DNA from: Escherichia coli
GTDB taxonomy: Bacteria; Pseudomonadota; Gammaproteobacteria; Enterobacterales; Enterobacteriaceae
Length of the DNA: 64,000 nucleotides
NCBI RefSeq assembly: GCF_009931435.1
Contig: NZ_CP043414.1
Direction: 5' to 3' (one strand)
Below are positions 40,548 through 54,324 of the stretch, piece after piece; position 1 is the stretch's first letter; every line of letters starts with the position of its first letter. Both the position numbers and the translations under genes were made by a program. The notes beneath the pieces are model-generated. The model had not been told where the DNA came from. It saw only the letters and a program-made list of their open reading frames with translations, and made no database searches.

Positions 40548-40883
40548 CATGACTCCTTGCTCATCGCATGAAGACTCCGAGAGTGAACCCCGTTAGAAAG
40601 GGTCACACGCATGCCCCAATACAAAATTATTTGCTCGCCTCTATCGCTGCCTTTTCCTCAAAAGTGGAAAAGACAATGATAAAAAGTTACAAATATGTTA
40701 ATGAATAAACCAAATTGATCCCGTAATTATATTACGCCGCAAAATCCTTACAATAAACAGGTTTTTATTGAGCAAATTTGCATTTTTCGACAGTGATCAA
40801 TTTATAGCGAAATTGTCACGACCTCACCAATTTGATCTACGACAATTTATCGTGTTTTGCAGATTTTTTTCAAGAATTAAAAA

Positions 40884-40897
40884 TTGATTTATATCAA
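40884..40897. promoter_or_regulatory. FNR-type box in cydAB upstream region
   Basis: ttgatttatatcaa is an exact TTGAT-N4-ATCAA palindrome, about 340 bp upstream of cydA. Confidence 0.5.
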
Positions 40898-41272
40898 AAC
40901 CAATCAAATATGTTAATTATGTATAAACCATAGACCATTGGTAATTTTATTGTTAATTTATTGTGAAATATTTATGTAACACAATTATTACAATAAAAAG
41001 ACATAGATAAAAAACCAGTGTTTTATTTAACAGAATCGCCTTATCAACTTTTTATAATACCAATTGATTAGAGTAGCCAATTTGTTGCTATTTTACATAA
41101 CATATTTTTATCAAAGTTAATTGATTGTTGCCTTTATGAGCATCGCCGTAAGACCGCCATGTTATTGTTTCATTTGTAATAATCACCAATAAGTATCGAT
41201 GAGAGAGATATCGCTTAACAGAGGCGACTGTGTCTGCATGAACACAGGCAACTTTCGCCTGATAAACGAAAA

Positions 41273-42295
41273 ATGAGCGATTTTTGCAAGTTAGTTTTTC
41301 TATTGCCGGGTACGCTGAGCGCCTCGCTTGATTACAATGAGGTTGCTGCCATGGGTCTTGATAATATAGGTTCTGTTGTCAATCGCTTCTCTGGTTGGCC
41401 ATCAAATGATCCTCTAAAAACAGATAACGAATCAATGACATCACCCGTGACTGTGCAGGTAATAAAGTTGATTGCCGCCATCCTTGACCCACATCGGATA
41501 GTCGTTGGTATCGATACACTTTATACAACGCAGCGCAAAACATTTACCTCAGAGGGTCAACAACTCATTGAATCAGCATTGAAAACACTTAATGTGATGA
41601 ATTTAAATAACCTGGAAACAGATCGTGATGAGGAGGGTAACTATCTGGCTTTTGGATATAACGTTGACACTCCTGACAGAATAACCGTTTCTGCTTATAA
41701 TGAAAAAAAACCTTTCTGTTATGGCCAATGTCTTTTAATACAGGATGAAGAACCAGATTTATTTAACCTGGTAAAAATTAAAACCTTTGAAGCCAGGCAT
41801 AATTATGTTTCTAAATTGATGAGCGATCCGGAATTTATGTTTAAATTCAGTTATAGCGCCCAACAAAATAGATTAGAACCTCATCTTCTGGTTCCCACTT
41901 ATTTCCCTCTGAAAACAAACCAACCGGTTACGCTAGAGGATGTACTGATACTTTATCGTTTCTTTAAAATGAATGGCGATTTTAATATATTAACATCAGA
42001 TGAATACATGAGTATCATGACACCTCTGATGAAGTGTGAGCGTAGTATCCACGACCATAACAGGTATGTGACGGGCAAAGATGCTCTTCTTCTGGACAAT
42101 CCTCCGTCTGGTAACCAGATATATTTCCATATTTCCCCTGACGAATCAGCAACACTTGTCCTTTATTTTTCAGACAATAACCTTGAATCCTTCGTCTTTG
42201 AAAATGATATTCCGAGCCAGTATCGACATTTCAAAATGTTTACCAATTTAGCACTAGTTATTGATCAGTTAACCGACGCCAATCAAATACTTTAA
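41273..42295 (+). CDS. hypothetical protein, no recognisable family, low-GC gene
   Basis: 340-codon ORF in about 33 percent GC DNA; no Shine-Dalgarno at first ATG; alternative start ATG 41351 has GAGG 9 nt upstream. Confidence 0.6.
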   Translation: MSDFCKLVFLLPGTLSASLDYNEVAAMGLDNIGSVVNRFSGWPSNDPLKTDNESMTSPVTVQVIKLIAAILDPHRIVVGIDTLYTTQRKTFTSEGQQLIESALKTLNVMNLNNLETDRDEEGNYLAFGYNVDTPDRITVSAYNEKKPFCYGQCLLIQDEEPDLFNLVKIKTFEARHNYVSKLMSDPEFMFKFSYSAQQNRLEPHLLVPTYFPLKTNQPVTLEDVLILYRFFKMNGDFNILTSDEYMSIMTPLMKCERSIHDHNRYVTGKDALLLDNPPSGNQIYFHISPDESATLVLYFSDNNLESFVFENDIPSQYRHFKMFTNLALVIDQLTDANQIL

Positions 42296-42374
42296 TTTTC
42301 TATACAGCCCTGTGTAAAATATTGCTAAACAGTGCCCGGGGTTGATTTTTATTCCTCACGGTGATATTTAAATC

Positions 42375-42797
42375 ATGACACCATCTCAGCTCTCTTTTAA
42401 TACTCTTCCTGTCAATGCAACATGCACTTCAGAGATAACAGTAAACACACAAAAATTCTCTGACATCCTCTACTCAGTGGGGTATTCCCTAAAGGATCTG
42501 GCTTATCTGAGCAGATGTCTGGCATCATTACACCCGACACTCGCCAAAAACATTTATGAAACGGAAAATCTCAGCGATCAAAAATTACTTTATATAGATT
42601 GCCGTAGTACAAATGAAATCAAGATAAATATCTTTTTGGGTCAAAAAAGAGAAGAATTAATCGAAATTAGTTCTGATACAGTCATTTTTTCGATACTGTC
42701 TTCATTGATTGACTCAGTTATTTCTGAACATCGACATCAAATCCCCGTTAACGATTCAAATAATTCTGAACTATTTTATGAGGATTATACTGATTAA
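42375..42797 (+). CDS. hypothetical small acidic protein, no recognisable family
   Basis: 140 aa ORF, same strand, 79 bp downstream of the 340 aa ORF, AT-rich, acidic C-terminus (ELFYEDYTD). Confidence 0.55.
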   Translation: MTPSQLSFNTLPVNATCTSEITVNTQKFSDILYSVGYSLKDLAYLSRCLASLHPTLAKNIYETENLSDQKLLYIDCRSTNEIKINIFLGQKREELIEISSDTVIFSILSSLIDSVISEHRHQIPVNDSNNSELFYEDYTD

Positions 42798-43341
42798 ATC
42801 CACTCTGTACGAACCTGTCCTGCATTTATGCCAGAAGTATTAGAATCTTTGCTTAACGTTACTCATACAGTAGCACCTTCATGTGCCTCTCTTTTTTACG
42901 AAAAATCAAAAGAGCTAACAAAAGTCATTCTTCGCATGAATCATTAATTATTTGTTATTTTCAACATTATTTTTACATTAAGCATATATGAATTGCAGTG
43001 AAATTCGACTTAACTTTTATGAAATGCATTTACTCATGGCTAAAGCCACGTCACAAAAATGCAAATTAGAAGTTGATCACAATTATCTCAATCCATCAAA
43101 TCAAGTTAATTTTAAAAATTTAACATCCATGACATTAGTTGACATAACACGCTGAATTAAAATGAGAATTTAAAAAAACACTTTAAACAATCATTTCCCG
43201 AAAGACATTTTGAAAATAGATCAATTGCAACATTACGGTCAGATAAAGACACTCCTCTGATATTAAACCTGTGCCGTTATGAACGGCCATAAATACGACG
43301 TGTGTAACTTAATTTACTCTCTGTCTTACAAAGGATTACCC

Positions 43342-43791
43342 ATGAAGAAAGCAACACTTGTGATTGGCGTTATTGGCGCGGACTGCCATGCAGTAGGCAA
43401 TAAAGTTCTGGACCGCGTTTTTAGCAACCATGACTTCAGAGTCATTAATCTGGGCGTAATGGTCAGCCAGGACGAATATATTGATGCTGCCATTGAAACT
43501 GGCGCTGACGCGATTGTCGTCTCCTCTATCTATGGGCATGGCGATATCGATTGTCTGGGCATGCGCGAACGCTGCATCGAGCGTGGGCTGGGTAACATCC
43601 TGCTCTATGTGGGCGGTAACCTGGTGGTCGGAAAACATGACTTCGCTGACGTGGAAACCAAGTTCAAAGAGATGGGATTTGATCGCGTCTTTTCCCCAAG
43701 TCATGACTTAGAAGATGTTTGTCAGCTGATGGCCCACGATATCAACCAACGTCATGACGTTGATACTCGCATTCTTGAAGAGGCAATCTGA
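43342..43791 (+). CDS. glutamate mutase sigma subunit (B12-binding subunit)
   Basis: ORF 43279-43791; start placed at ATG 43342 after AAAGGA; [18 protein letters not shown] resembles the clostridial MutS/GlmS cobalamin-binding motif. Confidence 0.88.
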
Positions 43792-45197: not shown

Positions 45198-46643
45198 ATG
45201 GAACTTCGAAATAAGAAATTAACCCATGACGAATTCATGACCGAGCGGCAACAGGTATTGAAAACCTGGGAAACCGGCAAGGATGTTGAAAACTTTGAAG
45301 ATGGCGTTAAATACCAACAAACCATTCCTGAGCATAAACGCTTCTCTCTTGCCCTGCTGAAAGCAGACAAGGAAGGTAAAACCCTTAGCCAACCGCGCGC
45401 AGGCGTGGCGCTGATGGACGAACACATCGAACTACTGAAAACACTACAAGAAGAGTGCGATCTGCTGCCGAGCACTATCGATGCATATACCCGTCTGAAT
45501 CGGTACGAAGAAGCTGCTGTAGGGATTAAAAAATCCATCGAAGCCGGAACCTCTAAACTGAACGGTTTACCGGTAGTTAACCACGGCGTCGCAGCTTGCC
45601 GTCGCCTCACCGAAACTCTGCAAAAACCGCTACAGATCCGCCACGGCACGCCAGATGCGCGTCTGCTGGCTGAAATCTCGATGGCCAGCGGCTTTACCAG
45701 TTATGAAGGCGGCGGCATTTCCTACAATATTCCGTATGCCAAGCGCGTAACGCTGGAAAAATCGATCCGCGACTGGCAGTACTGCGATCGTTTAATGGGG
45801 ATGTACGAAGAACACGGGATCCGCATCAACCGCGAACCGTTTGGCCCACTAACGGGTACGCTGATCCCGCCGTTTATCTCGCACTCTATCGCAATAATCG
45901 AAGGCTTGCTGGCACTGGAACAGGGTGTGAAGTCTATCACCGTTGGTTATGGTCAGGTCGGTAGCCTGACGCAGGATGTTGCGGCGATCCAGTCTCTGCG
46001 GGAACTTGCACACGAATATTTTCAGAGCTATGGCTATACCGACTACGAATTAAGTACCGTGTTTCACCAGTGGATGGGAGGCTTTCCGGAGGACGAATCG
46101 AAAGCGTTCGCCATTATCTCCTGGGGTGCTGCAGTCGCGGGGATGTCTGGTGCTACCAAAGTCATCACCAAAAGTCCGCACGAAGCCTGGGGCATCCCGA
46201 CTGCTGCTGCCAACATTCAGGGGCTAAAAGCCTCCCGCCAGATGCTCAACATGGTCAACGAGCAGAAATTCCCGCCGTGCCCGGCGGTTGAACTAGAAAT
46301 TGAACTGATTAAGAGCGAGGTTCGCGCTGTACTGAACAAAGTGTTCGAACTGGGTAATGGTGATATTGCGCGCGGTACGGTGCTGGCATTTGAAGCGGGC
46401 GTACTGGATGTGCCGTTTGCACCAGCCGCCTGCAACGCGGGCAAAATTCTTCCGGTCCGTGACAACACCGGCGCGATACGCGTACTGGAAGCCGGAGCCG
46501 TTCCATTGCCAAAAGATATTCTCGACCTCCACCACGATTACGTTGCGGAACGCGCGCGCTTTGAAGGACGCCAACCGACATTCCAGATGGTTGTAGATGA
46601 CATCAATGCTGTATCCCACAGTAAATTAATAGGAAGACCATAA
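45198..46643 (+). CDS. glutamate mutase epsilon (catalytic) subunit
   Basis: 481 aa ORF, N-terminus MELRNKKLTHDEFMTERQQVLKTW resembles clostridial GlmE/MutE. Confidence 0.88.
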   Translation: MELRNKKLTHDEFMTERQQVLKTWETGKDVENFEDGVKYQQTIPEHKRFSLALLKADKEGKTLSQPRAGVALMDEHIELLKTLQEECDLLPSTIDAYTRLNRYEEAAVGIKKSIEAGTSKLNGLPVVNHGVAACRRLTETLQKPLQIRHGTPDARLLAEISMASGFTSYEGGGISYNIPYAKRVTLEKSIRDWQYCDRLMGMYEEHGIRINREPFGPLTGTLIPPFISHSIAIIEGLLALEQGVKSITVGYGQVGSLTQDVAAIQSLRELAHEYFQSYGYTDYELSTVFHQWMGGFPEDESKAFAIISWGAAVAGMSGATKVITKSPHEAWGIPTAAANIQGLKASRQMLNMVNEQKFPPCPAVELEIELIKSEVRAVLNKVFELGNGDIARGTVLAFEAGVLDVPFAPAACNAGKILPVRDNTGAIRVLEAGAVPLPKDILDLHHDYVAERARFEGRQPTFQMVVDDINAVSHSKLIGRP

Positions 46644-47884
46644 TGAAAATAAAACAGGCCCTTTTTACCGCTGGCTACTCCTCATTCTATTTCGATGATC
46701 AGCAGGCGATAAAAAACGGAGCGGGTCACGACGGCTTTTTCTACACCGGAGAGCCGGTAACACAGGGGTTTAACGCCGTACGTCAGGCCGGGGAGTGCGT
46801 TTCGGTTCAGTTGATTCTGGAAAACGGTGCGGTCGCCGTAGGTGACTGTGCTGCCGTACAGTATTCCGGGGCAGGCGGTCGCGATCCACTGTTCCTCGCA
46901 GAGCACTTTATTCCGTTCCTCAACGACCATATCAAGCCATTACTGGTAGGCCGCGATGTGGATGCTTTCCTGCCGAATGCCCGTTTCTTCGACAAATTGC
47001 GTATTGACGGCAACTTGCTGCATACCGCCGTACGTTACGGATTATCACAGGCGCTGCTTGATGCTACCGCGCTGGCAACCGGCCGTCTGAAAACTGAAGT
47101 GGTCTGTGATGAATGGCAGTTGCCACGCGTGGCGGAATCCATTCCATTATTTGGTCAGAGCGGCGACGATCGATATATCGCCGTCGATAAGATGATCCTT
47201 AAGGGCATCGACGTGCTGCCCCATGCGCTGATTAATAACGTCGAAGAGAAACTGGGCTTTAAAGGTGAAAAACTGCGCGAATATGTCCGCTGGTTGTCAG
47301 ATCGCATTCTGAGCAAGCGCACCAGCGCACGCTACCACCCTACCCTGCACATCGATGTATACGGCACTATCGGTCTGATCTTCGATATGGATCCGCTTCG
47401 CTGTGCGCAATACATCGCCAGTCTGGAAAAAGAGGCGCAAGGCCTGCCGCTCTACATTGAGGGGCCGGTCGATGCCGGTAACAAGCCCGATCAAATCCGC
47501 CTGCTGACCGCGATTACCAAAGAGCTGACGCGCCTCGGTTCCGGCGTGAAAATCGTGGCCGATGAATGGTGTAACACCTACCAGGATATTGTTGATTTCA
47601 CTGATGCCGCCAGTTGCCACATGGTGCAAATCAAAACCCCGGATCTGGGCAGTATTCACAACATCGTCGATGCAGTTCTTTATTGCAACAGCCACAGCAT
47701 GGAAGCGTACCAGGGCGGCACCTGCAATGAAACTGATGTCAGTGCCCGCACCTGTGTCCACGTCGCCCTTGCTGCTCGCCCCATGCGTATGCTGGTAAAA
47801 CCAGGGATGGGCTTTGACGAAGGCCTCGATATCGTCTTCAACGAAATGAATCGTACTATCGCGCTGTTGCAGGCTAAGGATTAA
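46643..47884 (+). CDS. 3-methylaspartate ammonia-lyase
   Basis: 413 aa ORF, N-terminus MKIKQALFTAGYSSFYFDDQQAIKNGAGHDGFFYTGEPVTQGF is a close match to remembered methylaspartase (enolase superfamily). Confidence 0.88.
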   Translation: MKIKQALFTAGYSSFYFDDQQAIKNGAGHDGFFYTGEPVTQGFNAVRQAGECVSVQLILENGAVAVGDCAAVQYSGAGGRDPLFLAEHFIPFLNDHIKPLLVGRDVDAFLPNARFFDKLRIDGNLLHTAVRYGLSQALLDATALATGRLKTEVVCDEWQLPRVAESIPLFGQSGDDRYIAVDKMILKGIDVLPHALINNVEEKLGFKGEKLREYVRWLSDRILSKRTSARYHPTLHIDVYGTIGLIFDMDPLRCAQYIASLEKEAQGLPLYIEGPVDAGNKPDQIRLLTAITKELTRLGSGVKIVADEWCNTYQDIVDFTDAASCHMVQIKTPDLGSIHNIVDAVLYCNSHSMEAYQGGTCNETDVSARTCVHVALAARPMRMLVKPGMGFDEGLDIVFNEMNRTIALLQAKD

Positions 47885-47887
47885 CAA

Positions 47888-49258
47888 ATGGCTCGTTCTT
47901 TTAAAGTCTTATCGCCAACGGCAATCCTCGGGTATGGATTCCCGGAAGAGAGCTTCCGCAAAGCGATGGCAGAATCGCCCGATCTGATCGCCGTTGATGC
48001 AGGCTCTTCCGATCCTGGCCCCCACTACCTCGGGGCGGGCAAACCGTTTACCGATCGCGCAGGGGTCAAGCGCGATCTGCGCTATATGATCACCGCAGGC
48101 GTGCAAAATAATATACCGGTGGTGATCGGAACGGCCGGCGGTTCTGGTGCCGCTCCACACCTGGAGTGGTGCCGAGAAATAATTCATGAGATTGCCCGGG
48201 AAGAGCACCTCGCGTTCTCGATGGCGCTGATCCCGGCAGACGTTGACAAAGCCATCGTCCACCAGGCGCTGGATAACGGCAAAATCACAGCGCTGGATTT
48301 TGTCCCGCCGTTAACCCACGACGCGATTGACGAAAGTACGTATATCGTCGCGCAAATGGGCATCGAACCCTTCCAGCAGGCGCTGAAAGAAGGCGCGCAA
48401 GTGGTGCTGGGCGGGCGCGCTTACGACCCGGCCTGCTTTGCTGCGCTACCGATCATGCAAGGCTTTGATGAAGGTCTGGCGCTGCATTGTGGGAAAATCC
48501 TTGAATGCGCGGCAATCGCCGCAACGCCCGGCTCAGGCTCTGACTGTGCGATGGGCATCATTGATGACAACGGCTTTACGCTGAAGACATTTAATCCGAA
48601 GCGTAAATTTACCGAAACGTCAGCGGCTGCACACACACTGTATGAGAAATCCGATCCCTACTTCCTGCCAGGACCTGGCGGCGTGTTGAACCTGAAAGGC
48701 TGCACATTTAAAGCGGTCAATGACGGCGAAGTGTACGTCAGCGGTTCTAAGCATGAAGAAACGCCGTATGCCCTGAAACTGGAAGGTGCGCGGCGGGTGG
48801 GCTTCCGCTGTCTGACCATCGCAGGAACGCGCGACCCGATCATGATCGCCGGGATCGATAAAATCATCGATGAAGTCAAAACCAGCGTTTCGCGTAACCT
48901 GTCGCTCGACGATGACAGCATTCGCATCAATTTCCACCTGTACGGCAAAAACGGGGTGATGGGCGACCATGAACCGATGCAAACTGCCGGGCATGAGCTG
49001 GGGATTGTCCTTGATGTAGTTGCACCGACCCAGGATATTGCCAATAGCGTTTGCTCGCTGGTGCGCTCTACCATGCTGCACTACGGCTATGAAAACCGCA
49101 TCGCTACCGCAGGCAACCTGGCGTTCCCGTTCTCCCCTTCTGATATCCAGGGCGGGCCGGTATACGAATTTTCCATATATCACCTGATTGAAGCCAACGA
49201 CGCTCTGCGTTTTGATTTCCATATTGAACAGGTGACGCCAGAAGGAGTTCAGGCATGA
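47888..49258 (+). CDS. conserved protein of unknown function, tentatively DUF1446 / AtuA-like
   Basis: 456 aa ORF 3 nt after the lyase gene; family assignment from memory of an LIAVDAGSSDPGP-type N-terminal pattern. Confidence 0.7.
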   Translation: MARSFKVLSPTAILGYGFPEESFRKAMAESPDLIAVDAGSSDPGPHYLGAGKPFTDRAGVKRDLRYMITAGVQNNIPVVIGTAGGSGAAPHLEWCREIIHEIAREEHLAFSMALIPADVDKAIVHQALDNGKITALDFVPPLTHDAIDESTYIVAQMGIEPFQQALKEGAQVVLGGRAYDPACFAALPIMQGFDEGLALHCGKILECAAIAATPGSGSDCAMGIIDDNGFTLKTFNPKRKFTETSAAAHTLYEKSDPYFLPGPGGVLNLKGCTFKAVNDGEVYVSGSKHEETPYALKLEGARRVGFRCLTIAGTRDPIMIAGIDKIIDEVKTSVSRNLSLDDDSIRINFHLYGKNGVMGDHEPMQTAGHELGIVLDVVAPTQDIANSVCSLVRSTMLHYGYENRIATAGNLAFPFSPSDIQGGPVYEFSIYHLIEANDALRFDFHIEQVTPEGVQA

Positions 49259-49572
49259 AACAGTCAATTGTCTCACTGGCGCAAGTCATTCGTTCGAAAA
49301 ATGCCGGACCTTACGAACTGGTTTTAGATATTTTATTTAAAACGAAAGAAAACTATGAGCGAGTAAAATCATCAGGGCAATTAACCCCAGAACTGATTGC
49401 GCGCTTATATCATGTTGAACCTGACTTTATTCATCGTATTGTCTGGTTTGATCCTTCTAACGCAGTAAAAATTGTCATGCCACGAGATATTATCTCCGGG
49501 AATGTAGGTGACAATGATGTCTATGGCGCACAGCAACATGCACCTTTATTAAATATGAGTTTCGATTTGTAA
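49255..49572 (+). CDS. small conserved protein, tentatively DUF4387-like partner
   Basis: 105 aa ORF overlapping the preceding gene by 4 nt (ATGA coupling). Confidence 0.7.
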   Translation: MKQSIVSLAQVIRSKNAGPYELVLDILFKTKENYERVKSSGQLTPELIARLYHVEPDFIHRIVWFDPSNAVKIVMPRDIISGNVGDNDVYGAQQHAPLLNMSFDL

Positions 49573-49658: not shown

Positions 49659-49684
49659 GATGCCTGAATCTCTATTCAGGCATC
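49659..49684 (+). other. intra-operon stem-loop (possible attenuator or processing site)
   Basis: 10-bp stem gatgcctgaa / ttcaggcatc with 6-nt loop; no clean U-tract. Confidence 0.3.
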
Positions 49685-49732
49685 CACTTCTCCTGATTCT
49701 GATTTATCGCCGTGCACCTGATGGAGGAAAAA

Positions 49733-51013
49733 ATGAAGAAAATAAGTTTAACCACGATGATTCTTTTGGCGCTGGTACTTGGAATGATTATCGGCGTAGT
49801 GCTCAATAACACTGCTTCACCGGAAACAGCAAAACTCTATGCGCAAGAAATATCGATATTCACGACGATTTTCTTACGACTGATAAAAATGATTATCGCT
49901 CCGTTAGTGGTCTCTACCCTGGTGGTAGGTATTGCTAAAATGGGCGATGCCAAAGCCCTTGGTCGTATTTTTTCTAAAACACTCTTTTTATTTATTTGCG
50001 CCTCATTGCTGTCAATTGCCTTAGGCTTGATAACGGTAAATTTCTTCATGCCAGGCACAGGAATTAATTTTGTTGCACACGGTGCCGAAACCACCGGAGT
50101 GGTCGCGTCAGAACCCTTTACACTAAAAGTATTTATTTCGCATGCTTTCCCCACCAGCATTGTCGATGCCATGGCGCACAATGAAATTTTGCAAATCGTG
50201 GTGTTCTCAATTTTCCTCGGCTGTAGCCTGACGGCGATTGGTGAGAAAGGCAGCGCCATCGTTCACGCCTTAGATTCGCTGGCACATGCCATGTTAAAGC
50301 TCACTGGCTACGTCATGCTCTTCGCTCCCCTGACCGTATTCGCCGCTATTTCAGCATTGATTGCTGAACGAGGACTGGCAGTTATGGTGAGCGCCGGGAT
50401 CTTTATGGGTGAATTTTATTTCACCATGTTATTACTTTGGGTGCTGCTTATCGGTCTGGCCATCGTTTATGTCGGCCCCTGCATCAGACGCCTGACCCGC
50501 GCCCTTTCAGAACCCGCCCTGCTGGCATTTACCACATCCAGTTCTGAAGCTGCTTTTCCGGGAACGCTTGAAAAACTGGAGCAATTTGGCGTTTCCCCCA
50601 AAATTGCCAGCTTTGTCTTACCCATTGGCTACTCATTTAATCTCGTTGGATCAATGGCCTACTGCTCCTTCGCCACAGTTTTCATCGCCCAGGCCTGCAA
50701 TATCCATTTATCCATCGGTGAGCAAATCACCATGCTGTTGATCCTGATGTTGACCTCGAAAGGAATGGCTGGCGTACCACGCGCCTCAATGGTGGTTATC
50801 GCCGCCACGCTCAACCAGTTCAATATTCCGGAAGCGGGGCTGATCTTGCTGATGGGCGTTGATCCGTTCCTTGATATGGGGCGTTCCGCGACAAACGTCA
50901 TGAGCAACGCAATGGGCGCTGCGATGGTGAGTCGGTGGGAAGGCGAACATTTCGGCGAGGGCTGTCGGGGTAAAGCATTAAAACCCAATGAATCGAACGT
51001 TGCTCTGCCCTGA
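49733..51013 (+). CDS. dicarboxylate/amino acid:cation symporter (DAACS, GltP/DctA family)
   Basis: ORF 49712-51013; start placed at ATG 49733 after GGAGG; polytopic membrane protein. Confidence 0.85.
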   Translation: MKKISLTTMILLALVLGMIIGVVLNNTASPETAKLYAQEISIFTTIFLRLIKMIIAPLVVSTLVVGIAKMGDAKALGRIFSKTLFLFICASLLSIALGLITVNFFMPGTGINFVAHGAETTGVVASEPFTLKVFISHAFPTSIVDAMAHNEILQIVVFSIFLGCSLTAIGEKGSAIVHALDSLAHAMLKLTGYVMLFAPLTVFAAISALIAERGLAVMVSAGIFMGEFYFTMLLLWVLLIGLAIVYVGPCIRRLTRALSEPALLAFTTSSSEAAFPGTLEKLEQFGVSPKIASFVLPIGYSFNLVGSMAYCSFATVFIAQACNIHLSIGEQITMLLILMLTSKGMAGVPRASMVVIAATLNQFNIPEAGLILLMGVDPFLDMGRSATNVMSNAMGAAMVSRWEGEHFGEGCRGKALKPNESNVALP

Positions 51014-51120: not shown

Positions 51121-52773
51121 ATGTCCAAACCATTTATCTGGCAAGAACCGTTTCTACAAAATAAAGACGGTACAGAATATACATTAATTAGCGATCAACA
51201 TATTACAGTAACGGAATTAGACGGCGAAGAAGTAATAAAAATCGCTCCTGAAGCATTAACGCTGCTTGCCCGGCAGGCATTTTATGAAGCCTCTTTTTTC
51301 TTACGTTCCGCTCATTTGCAACAGGTCGCCAGCATTCTTAACGATCCGCAGGCCAGCAGTAATGATAAATACGTTGCGTTGCAGTTATTACGTAATGCTG
51401 AAGTCTCAGCAAAAGGGGTATTACCCAACTGTCAGGATACCGGCACCGCAACTATTGTTGCCAGTAAAGGGCAACAGATATGGACGGGAGGTAACGACGC
51501 TGAAGCCTTAAGCAAAGGCATTTACAGTACTTTCCAGGAAAATAATCTGCGCTTTTCACAAAATGCGCCGCTGGATATGTATACCGAAGTCAATACGCAA
51601 ACCAATCTTCCGGCGCAGATTGATATCAGCGCTGTCGCTGGTAATGAGTACCATTTTCTCTGTGTTAATAAAGGGGGCGGCTCCGCCAATAAAGCCGCAC
51701 TTTATCAGGAAACCAAATCCTTATTGCAACCAGAAAAACTGACCGCATTTTTAATCGACAAAATGAAATCGTTGGGCACGGCCGCCTGCCCGCCCTACCA
51801 CATCGCCTTTGTCGTCGGAGGGCTTTCAGCCGATCAAACCTTAAAAGTTGCCAAGCTGGCCTCTACGAAATATTACGACAATTTGCCCACCAGCGGAAAC
51901 GAGCAGGGACAAGCATTCCGTGATATTGAGCTGGAAAAAGCGTTGCTCGAGGCCAGTCAGCAATTTGGTATTGGTGCGCAATTTGGGGGTAAATATTTCG
52001 CTCATGATATTCGCGTCATTCGTCTGCCGCGTCACGGTGGCTCTTGCCCGATAGCTATGGCGCTCTCCTGTTCTGCCGATCGCAATATCAAAGCAAAAAT
52101 TAACAAGCATGGTATCTGGCTGGAAAAACTCGAACACAATCCGGGGCAATATATTCCAGCCTCACTGCGGGAAGAAAATCACGCGCAACATGTACAGCTG
52201 GATCTAAACCGTCCGTTGCGTGACGTGATGCAGGATCTCGCCAGATTACCGGTAGGTACCCGCGTGTCGTTAAGTGGTCCCATCGTAGTGGCGCGCGATA
52301 TCGCCCACGCAAAAATAAAAGCGCGGCTGGATAGCGGCGAATCGATGCCGGATTACCTGAAGCATCATATTGTCTATTACGCTGGCCCGGCGAAAACACC
52401 GGAGAACATGGCCTGCGGTTCACTGGGTCCAACCACGGGCGGTCGAATGGACGGTTATGTCGAAACCTTCCAGGCGGCTGGCGGCAGTCTGGTAATGTTA
52501 TCGAAAGGTAACCGCAGCCAGCAGGTCACCGATGCCTGTCACAAACATGCAGGCTTCAATCTGGGAAGTATTGGCGGTGCAGCTGCGTTACTGGCGCAAG
52601 AATATGTCAAAAGTCTGCGTTGCCTGGAATACCCGGAGCTGGGTATGGAGGCGGTGTGGATGATGGAAGTGGAAAATCTGCCCGCATTCATCCTGGTTGA
52701 TGATAAAGGCAATAATTTCTTTAGCCAGTTTGAGCAGCAACACCGCTGCGCCAGTTGCCCTGCGGGACATTAA
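51121..52773 (+). CDS. fumD: class I (Fe-S) fumarate hydratase family protein, mesaconase candidate
   Basis: 550 aa ORF, FumA/FumB length and fold; symbol from memory of the O157:H7 cluster. Confidence 0.8.
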
Positions 52774-53385: not shown

Positions 53386-53418
53386 TAACTGCGCCTGGCA
53401 TCCAGCCAGGCGCAGGTT

Positions 53419-54324
53419 TTACATCTCCTGCGGTACGACCGATTTCGCCAGCAACCATTCACGAAATTGCTGCAAGTGCGGCGAGTCAGACTTCTCTTCC
53501 TGCCACGTCATAATAAAACGATTACCGGTACGAATAGGCACATCACAGGGAATCACCATATCGCCACTATCCAAATCATGTTGAATAGCGAACCGTGGTA
53601 ACAGCGCCACGCCGAGATTAGAGCGCACGGCGGCAATCAGCATTGAAAGCAAATCGAAACGTGGTCCGTTATTGACCAGCGGACTGCTAACGCCAGATAA
53701 AGCAAACCACTCTTCCCAGCCAGTAATACGGGTGCTTTGATGCAGAAGTGGTAACTCAGTAAGCAGTTCTGCCACTGACAGTTTTTGATCGGACATTGCA
53801 AGCAAACTGCCGCTGCATACCGGCAAAATCTCCTCTTCAAAGAGATATTCTACTTCCGCCCAGGGCGCGCAAAAATTTTCGCGCATAATGACAGCATCGT
53901 ACTCCCGATTAAGAAAATCGCCGTTATTAGCTAAAGAATGAATATTAACAATAATATCGGGATGTAACTTTGTGAATTCATGTAAATTTGGGATTAACCA
54001 GTGGGTACTAAACGTAGGATTAACGGCAAGTTCAATAACCTGAACCGTAGGCTGCCAGGTCATAATCGTATTGGTATCGCGCTCCAATTTATTTAATGTT
54101 TCTTTTACTATCCCCAGGTAATACTTCCCTGCATCATTAAGAAAAATGCGTTTTTTAGAGTGTGAAAATAACGGAGTATGTAAAAATTCCTCCAACGCAC
54201 TTACTTGTCTGAATACTGCACTTTGGGTTAACGCTAACTCCTCTGCCGCTCTGGTATAACTTTCATGACGTGCGACGACCTCAAAAGTCACCAGCAGCTC
54301 CGTTTTAGGTATTTTTCCTCGCAT
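53419..54324 (-). CDS. LysR-family transcriptional regulator
   Basis: 301 aa ORF, N-terminal HTH (ESYTRAAEELALTQSAVFRQVSALEEFL). Confidence 0.85.
   Translation of the reverse strand: MRGKIPKTELLVTFEVVARHESYTRAAEELALTQSAVFRQVSALEEFLHTPLFSHSKKRIFLNDAGKYYLGIVKETLNKLERDTNTIMTWQPTVQVIELAVNPTFSTHWLIPNLHEFTKLHPDIIVNIHSLANNGDFLNREYDAVIMRENFCAPWAEVEYLFEEEILPVCSGSLLAMSDQKLSVAELLTELPLLHQSTRITGWEEWFALSGVSSPLVNNGPRFDLLSMLIAAVRSNLGVALLPRFAIQHDLDSGDMVIPCDVPIRTGNRFIMTWQEEKSDSPHLQQFREWLLAKSVVPQEM

What the first reader, a model, noticed from the sequence alone, without database searches (positions are those of the whole stretch)
47888..49572. Conserved unknown-function gene pair embedded in the methylaspartate operon
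A 456 aa and a 105 aa protein sit between the lyase and the transporter, the second overlapping the first by 4 nt. The known pathway (mutase, lyase, mesaconase, B12 adenosyltransferase) does not obviously need them. I tentatively assign them to the DUF1446 (AtuA-like) and DUF4387 families, which are often found paired, but this is from memory. Their co-transcription with the pathway genes suggests a missing step or cofactor-handling function.
Basis: partly seen in the sequence, partly recalled or inferred. Interest (0 to 1): 0.5.

Follow-up and report, generated by a model that had tools for sequence, protein, structure and literature searches.

The report
Citramalate lyase CmlAB gene pair
The two "unknown" genes encode the large and small subunits of a recently solved citramalate lyase (CmlAB), which performs the last step of the glutamate-to-pyruvate-plus-acetate pathway encoded by this operon, so the pair is real and interesting but already explained.

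Summary
Two + strand genes, 47888-49258 (456 aa) and 49255-49572 (105 aa), overlap by ATGA and lie between the methylaspartate ammonia-lyase gene and a dicarboxylate/amino-acid symporter gene.

The family guesses are also correct: Pfam AtuA/DUF1446 (E=7e-19) and DUF4387 (E=3e-39).

The function is no longer unknown. PDB entries 9ERQ and 9EVF, released October 2025, are named "Citramalate lyase, subunit A (cmlA)" and "subunit B (cmlB)". They match at 92% (420/456, no gaps) and 85% identity. A 2026 preprint uses the Raoultella cmlAB genes to cleave citramalate to pyruvate and acetate in vivo.

Context agrees with this:
- In 80 loci, nearly all from different species, cmlA sits directly after the lyase gene in 77.
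- cmlB follows cmlA in 77.
- The mutase E subunit is present wherever enough upstream sequence exists, except in two loci.
- No locus carries classical citrate-lyase-type (CitCDEFXG) genes.
- In longer relatives the two proteins are fused.

So the pair supplies the step that was missing for E. coli in 2015. The role of the bound adenine nucleotide (AMPPNP or ADP in the crystals) could not be settled here.

Verdict: already known. Annotation databases still lag behind.

The parts
43342..43791 (+). glmS, methylaspartate (glutamate) mutase subunit S. The longest ORF starts at 43279; the RefSeq start corresponds to 43342.
   Evidence: NF002612/TIGR01501 E=2e-75; RefSeq annotation in L001
43791..45179 (+). 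glmL, mutase accessory (reactivating) protein
   Evidence: TIGR01319 E=4e-266, NF040745
45198..46643 (+). glmE, methylaspartate mutase subunit E
   Evidence: TIGR01503 E=1e-260
46643..47884 (+). mal, methylaspartate ammonia-lyase
   Evidence: TIGR01502 E=2e-163
47888..49258 (+). cmlA, large subunit of citramalate lyase (AtuA/DUF1446 family), 456 aa
49255..49572 (+). cmlB, small subunit of citramalate lyase (DUF4387), 105 aa, translationally coupled to cmlA through an ATGA overlap
49733..51013 (+). dicarboxylate/amino acid:cation symporter (GltP/DctA type). The ORF opens at 49712 (GTG); the RefSeq start corresponds to 49733.
   Evidence: NF002461/NF008440 below the equivalog cut-offs; RefSeq annotation
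51121..52773 (+). fumD, class I fumarate hydratase acting as mesaconase (mesaconate to (S)-citramalate)
   Evidence: NF011921 score 1276, above the cut-off of 1060; biochemistry in PMC4682846
52783..53385 (+). cobA/cobO, corrinoid adenosyltransferase
   Evidence: NF004637/TIGR00708
53389..53415 (+). the only strong intrinsic-terminator-like hairpin on the + strand of the operon region (11-bp stem, 9 G-C pairs), just after cobA
53419..54324 (-). LysR-family regulator, convergent with the operon; candidate regulator only
   Evidence: NF008352 GcvA-like, below cut-off; RefSeq annotation

Best explanation
The two genes encode the large (CmlA, AtuA/DUF1446 fold) and small (CmlB, DUF4387) subunits of one enzyme, citramalate lyase CmlAB. 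The operon converts glutamate to 3-methylaspartate (GlmS/GlmE, with GlmL and CobA for B12 upkeep), then to mesaconate (Mal), then to (S)-citramalate (FumD). CmlAB then breaks the C2-C3 bond of citramalate to give pyruvate and acetate. This completes the methylaspartate pathway without the acyl-carrier-protein machinery of the classical citrate-lyase-type enzyme. The two subunits are made in a fixed ratio by translational coupling (ATGA overlap with its own Shine-Dalgarno sequence) and form a complex. The catalytic site also binds an adenine nucleotide. What is shown: the homology, the depositors' naming, the ligands in the crystals, in vivo activity of the 92%-identical orthologue, and the conserved context. 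What is inferred: that the E. coli-type protein in this window has the same activity, and what the nucleotide does. My estimate for the nucleotide is about 50% that ATP takes part chemically (phosphoryl transfer to a carboxylate to make the C-C cleavage feasible), about 40% that it is an activator or structural ligand that is not consumed, and about 10% something else.
For: (1) PDB 9ERQ/9EVF chains A and B are named citramalate lyase subunits A (cmlA) and B (cmlB). They match the window proteins at E=3e-292 and 5e-57 over full length, with 420/456 and 88/104 identical residues. None of the 36 substitutions in CmlA falls on a column that is invariant among 21 homologues.
(2) The entry titles are 'Citramalate lyase - AMPPNP - citramalate complex' and 'Citramalate lyase - ADP - pyruvate complex', so both substrate and product are seen bound.
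[quoted passage not shown] Mesaconate-dependent growth of an acetyl-CoA auxotroph is lost on curing the cmlAB plasmid, and isotope labelling confirms the route.
(5) Synteny: mal lies immediately upstream of cmlA in 78/81 loci and cmlB immediately downstream in 78/81. GlmE is present in 73/81; six of the eight misses are contig truncations. A class I hydratase is present in 54 loci, and no CitC/D/E/F/X/G homologue occurs in any locus or in the window.
(6) In the two loci that truly lack mutase and lyase genes, one (L080) still pairs cmlAB with a two-subunit fumarase-type hydratase. This fits a hydratase-then-lyase module.
(7) Fusion evidence: all 18 relatives longer than 600 aa carry a CmlB-like C-terminal domain (Pfam AtuA+DUF4387).
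(8) In E. coli the pair travels with the whole operon: 1121 genomes carry the pair and 1117 carry at least 80% of glmS-cobA.
Against: I found no primary paper describing CmlAB in the searchable library, so kinetics, stoichiometry and the role of ATP are unknown to me. The functional label rests on depositors' names and on a preprint that received the genes as a gift. The activity of the E. coli-type protein itself has not been shown. [quoted passage not shown] Pfam and NCBIfam give no functional name. The preprint never mentions ATP and treats the reaction as a reversible lyase. Its evolved strains also needed more Acs, which points to free acetate. This sits uneasily with a stoichiometric ATP requirement.
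Confidence: 0.9

Rival explanations
1. Same enzyme, but it is an ATP-consuming lyase. ATP phosphorylates the C4 carboxylate of citramalate. The acyl phosphate makes the retro-Claisen cleavage feasible, and the products are pyruvate, ADP and acetyl phosphate. Acetate kinase then turns acetyl phosphate into acetate plus ATP, so the step is energy-neutral.
Confidence: 0.3
2. The pair is a cofactor-handling or repair factor for the B12-dependent mutase.
For: Tight linkage to glmS/L/E in most loci.
Against: GlmL and CobA already cover reactivation and adenosylation. cmlAB occurs with a hydratase but without any mutase in L080 and L083 and alone in L053. The crystals contain citramalate and pyruvate, not corrinoids.
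Confidence: 0.02
3. The large protein is what its database names say: an acyclic terpene utilisation protein (AtuA), or, in older records, a second 3-methylaspartate ammonia-lyase.
For: PGAP name 'acyclic terpene utilization AtuA family protein'. Several homologues are named '3-methylaspartate ammonia-lyase'.
Against: No atu genes (geranyl-CoA carboxylase and the others) lie near it in the window or in the 80 loci. The Pfam match is only family-level, at 68 bits. There is no NCBIfam match to methylaspartase TIGR01502, whereas the real Mal next door scores 544 bits. PMC4682846 already flagged the lyase name as unexplained.
Confidence: 0.01
4. The enzyme is a citramalate lyase by ancestry, but in E. 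coli the operon is cryptic or serves another purpose, such as use of mesaconate or citramalate, or of histidine-derived glutamate, rather than glutamate fermentation.
For: No expression and no growth on glutamate were found for E. coli ATCC 700728. A hut cluster lies next to the operon in this window. cmlAB with a hydratase occurs without the mutase elsewhere.
Against: All nine genes are intact here and in about 1117 E. coli genomes at 95-99% identity, which argues for purifying selection on the whole pathway.
Confidence: 0.15

Closest known systems
CmlAB citramalate lyase of Raoultella/Klebsiella (PDB 9ERQ and 9EVF, released October 2025; used as 'Cml' in bioRxiv 10.64898/2026.01.16.699985)
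   Different: 36 and 16 substitutions, all outside columns invariant in the subfamily for CmlA. Activity of the E. coli-lineage protein has not been measured. In this window the operon is flanked by a hut cluster.
Classical citramalate lyase, EC 4.1.3.22 (Clostridium tetanomorphum; CitDEF-like complex with an acyl-carrier subunit and CitC/X/G activation)
   Same: Same pathway position and same overall reaction, (S)-citramalate to pyruvate plus acetate (PMC4682846).
   Different: No sequence relationship. No CitC/D/E/F/X/G homologue occurs in the window or in any of 80 cmlAB loci. There is no ACP or prosthetic-group machinery, and CmlAB binds an adenine nucleotide instead. It is an analogous (non-homologous) enzyme.
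[quoted passage not shown]
   Same: Same Pfam family, PF07287. The proposed AtuA reaction also releases acetate from a tertiary beta-hydroxy acid (PMC4847356), which is formally the same bond cleavage as citramalate to pyruvate plus acetate.
   Different: The relationship is distant (68-bit Pfam match). AtuA is about 600-615 aa, a length that fits the AtuA+DUF4387 fusions seen, but I did not test AtuA itself. Its substrate is a CoA ester. Its activity has never been demonstrated as far as I could find.
(S)-citramalyl-CoA lyase route (CoA transferase plus CitE-like Ccl), as in itaconate or mesaconate degradation
   Same: Also yields pyruvate and a C2 unit from citramalate.
   Different: It needs CoA activation and gives acetyl-CoA. 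Most enterobacteria lack it, and no CitE homologue is present here.

Membership tests
CmlAB citramalate lyase (as in PDB 9ERQ/9EVF) | Large subunit homologous over full length to chain A | tested here: met
CmlAB citramalate lyase (as in PDB 9ERQ/9EVF) | Small DUF4387 subunit homologous to chain B and encoded immediately downstream | tested here: met
CmlAB citramalate lyase (as in PDB 9ERQ/9EVF) | Conserved residues of the subfamily and of the wider family are retained | tested here: met
   All columns invariant in alignments A1 and A2 include the window sequence. The family-wide core is present: D42, G44, G87, G176, R177, D180, H200, K203, E206, C207, E253, E299, E370, H432. Which of these contact the ligands could not be checked, because I had no coordinates.
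CmlAB citramalate lyase (as in PDB 9ERQ/9EVF) | Genomic association with enzymes that make citramalate (mal, glutamate mutase, mesaconase) | tested here: met
   78/81 loci with mal, 73/81 with GlmE, 54 with a class I hydratase. Same in the window.
CmlAB citramalate lyase (as in PDB 9ERQ/9EVF) | Cleaves (S)-citramalate to pyruvate plus acetate | not testable with these tools
   Shown in vivo only for the R. planticola orthologue.
Pfam PF07287 AtuA / DUF1446 | Significant match to the family HMM | tested here: met
   E=7.4e-19, 68.3 bits, residues 63-393 against model positions 61-396 of 437.
Pfam PF14330 DUF4387 | Significant match to the family HMM | tested here: met
   E=2.9e-39, 134 bits, residues 6-101 against model positions 2-97 of 98.
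Classical citrate/citramalate lyase complex (CitDEF plus CitC/X/G) | ACP (CitD), beta (CitE) and alpha (CitF) subunits and activation genes | tested here: not met
   tblastn with E. coli K-12 CitC/D/E/F/X/G found nothing in the window or in the 80 loci.
Methylaspartate ammonia-lyase (legacy name for CmlA homologues) | Match to TIGR01502 / enolase-superfamily MAAL domains | tested here: not met
   No NCBIfam hit for CmlA, whereas the neighbouring Mal gives E=2e-163. Pfam finds only AtuA.
Atu (acyclic terpene utilisation) pathway | Clustered with atuB-H (geranyl-CoA carboxylase, acyl-CoA dehydrogenase, hydratase) | tested here: not met
   Neighbours are glm, mal, fumD, cobA and hut genes.

The most novel reading that the evidence does not exclude
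The AtuA/DUF4387 two-component module would be a general, previously unrecognised class of adenine-nucleotide-dependent C-C lyases that release acetate, or acetyl phosphate, from tertiary beta-hydroxy acids. The module comprises about 2400 clusters at 50% identity, including fungal fusions. CmlAB is its first solved member. [quoted passage not shown] Relatives found next to M20 amidohydrolases, FAD oxidoreductases or isochorismatase-like genes would act on other hydroxy acids. In the CmlAB case ATP would be a true co-substrate, with acetyl phosphate as product.
Probability: 0.25. Interest if true: 0.65.

Novelty: already known. Interest (0 to 1): 0.3.

Why it matters
CmlAB closes the gap left open in 2015 for the methylaspartate pathway in Enterobacteriaceae, namely what happens to citramalate. 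It shows that about one fifth of complete E. coli genomes (1117 of 5426), including O157:H7 strains, encode a complete route from glutamate to pyruvate plus acetate. In this window the adjacent hut cluster could feed histidine-derived glutamate into the same route.

It is a non-homologous replacement of the ACP-dependent lyase by a compact two-gene enzyme, and that enzyme is already being used in synthetic C1 metabolism.

In practice, thousands of database entries still read 'AtuA family', 'DUF4387' or, wrongly, '3-methylaspartate ammonia-lyase'. They could be renamed within the subfamily that shares at least about 60% identity and the conserved gene order.

Tried and rejected
- NCBIfam gave no family for either protein.
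- Seven literature searches for a primary CmlAB paper found only the 2015 paper and the 2026 preprint that uses the enzyme. The search terms were DUF names, 'citramalate lyase', CmlAB, the PDB codes, Raoultella, ATP-dependent or phosphate variants, and methylaspartate with mesaconase.
- Five cysteines are invariant in the close subfamily, which suggested a thioester mechanism. Only C207 is kept family-wide, at 88%, so the idea stays speculative.
- The simple promoter scan found no + strand sigma-70-like site upstream of glmS, so the operon start and its regulation remain undefined.
- L062 (Lentisphaerae MAG) has cmlA but no recognisable cmlB downstream. I did not pursue this.
- I did not obtain Pseudomonas AtuA itself, so its fusion status is inferred from its length only.

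Full report
**Observation.** The ORF table contains exactly the two ORFs described: 47888..49258 (+, 456 aa) and 49255..49572 (+, 105 aa).
- The sequence shows the mal stop codon at 47882-47884 and the first ATG three bases later, behind an AAGGA.
- The second ATG is embedded in ATGA (49255-49258), with GAAGGAG 7 nt upstream. This is a classic translationally coupled pair.
- Upstream genes are glmS, glmL, glmE and methylaspartate ammonia-lyase. Downstream are a GltP/DctA-type symporter, the class I fumarate hydratase FumD and a corrinoid adenosyltransferase. All were identified with NCBIfam and match the RefSeq annotation of a 99.7%-identical E. coli chromosome.
- The only convincing + strand terminator in the region follows cobA at 53389-53415. 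This is consistent with one transcription unit running from glmS to cobA.

**Families.** Pfam places the large protein in PF07287 (AtuA, formerly DUF1446) with E=7e-19, and the small one in PF14330 (DUF4387) with E=3e-39. NCBIfam has no model for either protein. PGAP calls them 'acyclic terpene utilization AtuA family protein' and 'DUF4387 domain-containing protein'.

**What it is.** A sequence search of the PDB gives near-identical chains.
- 9erq_A/9evf_A is 456 aa (E=3e-292) and is named 'Citramalate lyase, subunit A (cmlA)'.
- 9erq_B/9evf_B is 105 aa (E=5e-57) and is named 'Citramalate lyase, subunit B (cmlB)'.
- Identity is 420/456 and 88/104 without gaps.
- The PDB CmlA sequence is 100% identical to the Klebsiella michiganensis locus L007.
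- The entry titles are 'Citramalate lyase - AMPPNP - citramalate complex' (released 2025-10-22) and 'Citramalate lyase - ADP - pyruvate complex' (released 2025-10-08).

[quoted passage not shown] Berg, expressed as cmlAB.
- Mesaconate-dependent growth of an acetyl-CoA auxotroph required the plasmid.
- Labelling confirmed carbon flow from mesaconate into acetyl-CoA.

Kronen and Berg 2015 (PMC4682846) had shown several things for E. coli O157:H7.
- FumD makes (S)-citramalate.
- 'The fate of (S)-citramalate ... is still unclear'.
- A DUF1446 gene after mal was unexplained and often mislabelled as methylaspartate ammonia-lyase.

CmlAB is thus the missing last enzyme.

**Independent context evidence.** An alignment of 21 CmlA-like proteins (A1) was used to scan one genome per GTDB species. 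The scan confirmed 571 relatives, and the 80 best (60-99% identity) were fetched with 10-kb flanks. They come from Enterobacterales, Rhodocyclales, Riflebacteria, Spirochaetes, Lentisphaerae, Holophagae and others. The counts below are tblastn results with the window's operon proteins over these 80 loci plus L001.
- Mal lies directly upstream of cmlA in 78/81 loci.
- CmlB lies directly downstream in 78/81. Two of the three misses are contig ends.
- GlmE is present in 73/81. Six of the eight misses are truncated contigs.
- A class I hydratase, in one- or two-subunit form, is present in 54 loci.
- No homologue of CitC, D, E, F, X or G occurs in any locus or in the window.

Two loci truly lack mutase and lyase genes.
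- L080 (Holophagaceae) has cmlAB followed by a two-subunit fumarase-type hydratase. That arrangement is a hydratase-then-lyase module.
- L053 (Accumulibacter) has cmlAB alone among unrelated genes.

In E. coli, 1121 complete genomes carry the pair and 1117 carry at least 80% of the whole glmS-cobA stretch. The pair therefore essentially never occurs without the pathway.

**The two proteins are partners.** Three lines of evidence go beyond the ATGA coupling.
- Every one of seven more distant homologues examined (44-61% identity) has a DUF4387 gene immediately downstream.
- All 18 of the 150 family representatives that are longer than 600 aa carry a CmlB-like C-terminal domain. Precomputed Pfam shows AtuA+DUF4387 in one polypeptide, mostly in fungi.
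- CmlB keeps strongly conserved polar motifs: IRSKNAGPYEL and SG..GD.DVYGAQQHAPL. This suggests it contributes to the active site or to an interface rather than being a passive add-on. That reading is an inference.

**Mechanism.** Three things are shown: the substrate and product in the crystals, an adenine nucleotide in both complexes, and pyruvate plus acetate as in vivo products of the orthologue. The chemistry is not shown.
- Cleaving a free beta-hydroxy carboxylate needs stabilisation of a carboxylate-alpha carbanion. Citrate-lyase-type enzymes solve this with thioesters.
- The pairing of AMPPNP with substrate and ADP with product suggests that ATP is turned over, for example through an acyl phosphate that would give acetyl phosphate.
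- Against that, the preprint never mentions ATP, treats the step as acetate-reversible, and needed Acs upregulation to use 'mesaconate-derived acetate'.
- Residues conserved across 116 representatives are D42, G44, G87, G176-R177, D180, H200, K203, E206, C207, E253, E299, E370 and H432. All are present in the window protein and are the obvious candidates for nucleotide, metal and substrate binding.
- I therefore commit to 'citramalate lyase CmlAB' at 0.9. I leave the ATP role open: about 0.5 chemical participant, about 0.4 activator or structural ligand.

[quoted passage not shown] Formally this is the same release of acetate from a tertiary beta-hydroxy acid. The Thauera AtuA in that paper is 615 aa, which matches the length of the AtuA+DUF4387 fusions, but I did not test AtuA itself.

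The family is large: 2386 clusters at 50% identity with E<=1e-3. Below about 55% identity the gene neighbourhoods change to M20 peptidase with amidohydrolase, DcuC and fumarase; to an MFS transporter with an FAD oxidoreductase; or to isochorismatase-like genes. The citramalate function should therefore be transferred only within the syntenic subfamily.

**Verdict.** The feature is already known from deposited structures and from use in a preprint, although I could not find the primary description and public annotation has not caught up. Interest is modest (0.3). What remains open is the nucleotide-dependent mechanism and the chemistry of the wider AtuA/DUF4387 family.

Noticed in passing
window 49255-49572 (cmlB) compared with 47888-49258 (cmlA); loci L001-L044, L048, L055, L064: cmlB is compositionally anomalous. 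Its GC is 0.38 (GC3 0.32), against 0.56 (GC3 0.62) for the overlapping cmlA and 0.49-0.54 for the rest of the operon. The same drop of about 7-17 GC points is seen in every Enterobacterales locus. It is not seen in several other lineages such as Rhodocyclales and Riflebacteria, where cmlB GC3 is about equal to cmlA GC3. I have no explanation. Possibilities are a mosaic origin, selection for weak mRNA structure, or an internal regulatory element.
   Followed up: partly
window 54595-~61500 (- strand): A histidine-utilisation cluster lies directly next to the methylaspartate operon: a HAL-type hutH, hutG, hutI, hutD, a cytosine-permease-family transporter and hutU. Together the two modules would take histidine through glutamate to pyruvate plus acetate. 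Only 143 of 5426 complete E. coli genomes have at least 80% of this stretch. About 840 others keep only a 138-bp remnant of its first bases, which suggests the cluster was deleted in most lineages that retain the operon. Compare the 'oxidative histidine pathway' (hut plus mal) described for gut Firmicutes in PMC13320830.
   Followed up: partly
window 49659-49684: A perfect 10-bp hairpin (GATGCCTGAA, loop TCTCTA, TTCAGGCATC) lies in the 139-nt spacer between cmlB and the symporter gene. It has no T tract, so it is not an obvious terminator. It could be an mRNA stabiliser, a processing site or a partial attenuator.
   Followed up: no
window ~40600-43250: A low-GC stretch (0.39-0.40, against about 0.52 nearby) lies between cydA and glmS. 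It holds two ORFs annotated only as hypothetical proteins, 41273-42295 (340 aa) and 42375-42797 (140 aa). It looks like a separately acquired insert at the edge of the island.
   Followed up: no
homologues P0002, P0060, P0072: Several CmlA homologues in public databases are named '3-methylaspartate ammonia-lyase'. This is a context-driven misannotation already remarked on in PMC4682846. The true Mal is the neighbouring enolase-superfamily protein.
   Followed up: yes
L083 8001-15596; L080 9633-13764: cmlAB-like pairs occur without mutase or lyase genes but with a two-subunit class I (Fumerase/Fumerase_C) hydratase. In L083 (55% identity) an M20 peptidase, an Amidohydro_3 protein and a DcuC transporter are also present. 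This may be a different entry route into the same hydratase-then-lyase module.
   Followed up: partly
L093 9750-10697; L094 2066-3013; L080 11367-12338: In non-enterobacterial loci a conserved ORF of about 315-323 aa lies between cmlB and the hydratase gene. It has no hit on record in the two libraries checked: no precomputed Pfam entry for the L093/L094 ORFs and no NCBIfam match for the L080 ORF. It is an uncharacterised accessory gene of the cluster.
   Followed up: no
window 43279-43341 and 53419-54324: The longest glmS ORF starts 63 nt upstream of the RefSeq start (MKKATLV... at 43342). The LysR-type regulator gene is convergent with the operon end rather than divergent from its promoter. 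No sigma-70-like + strand promoter was found upstream of glmS by the simple scan.
   Followed up: no
L062 3329-4768: A Lentisphaerae MAG carries glmE, mal and cmlA, but no recognisable cmlB within 3 kb downstream. This could be loss, relocation or an assembly artefact.
   Followed up: partly
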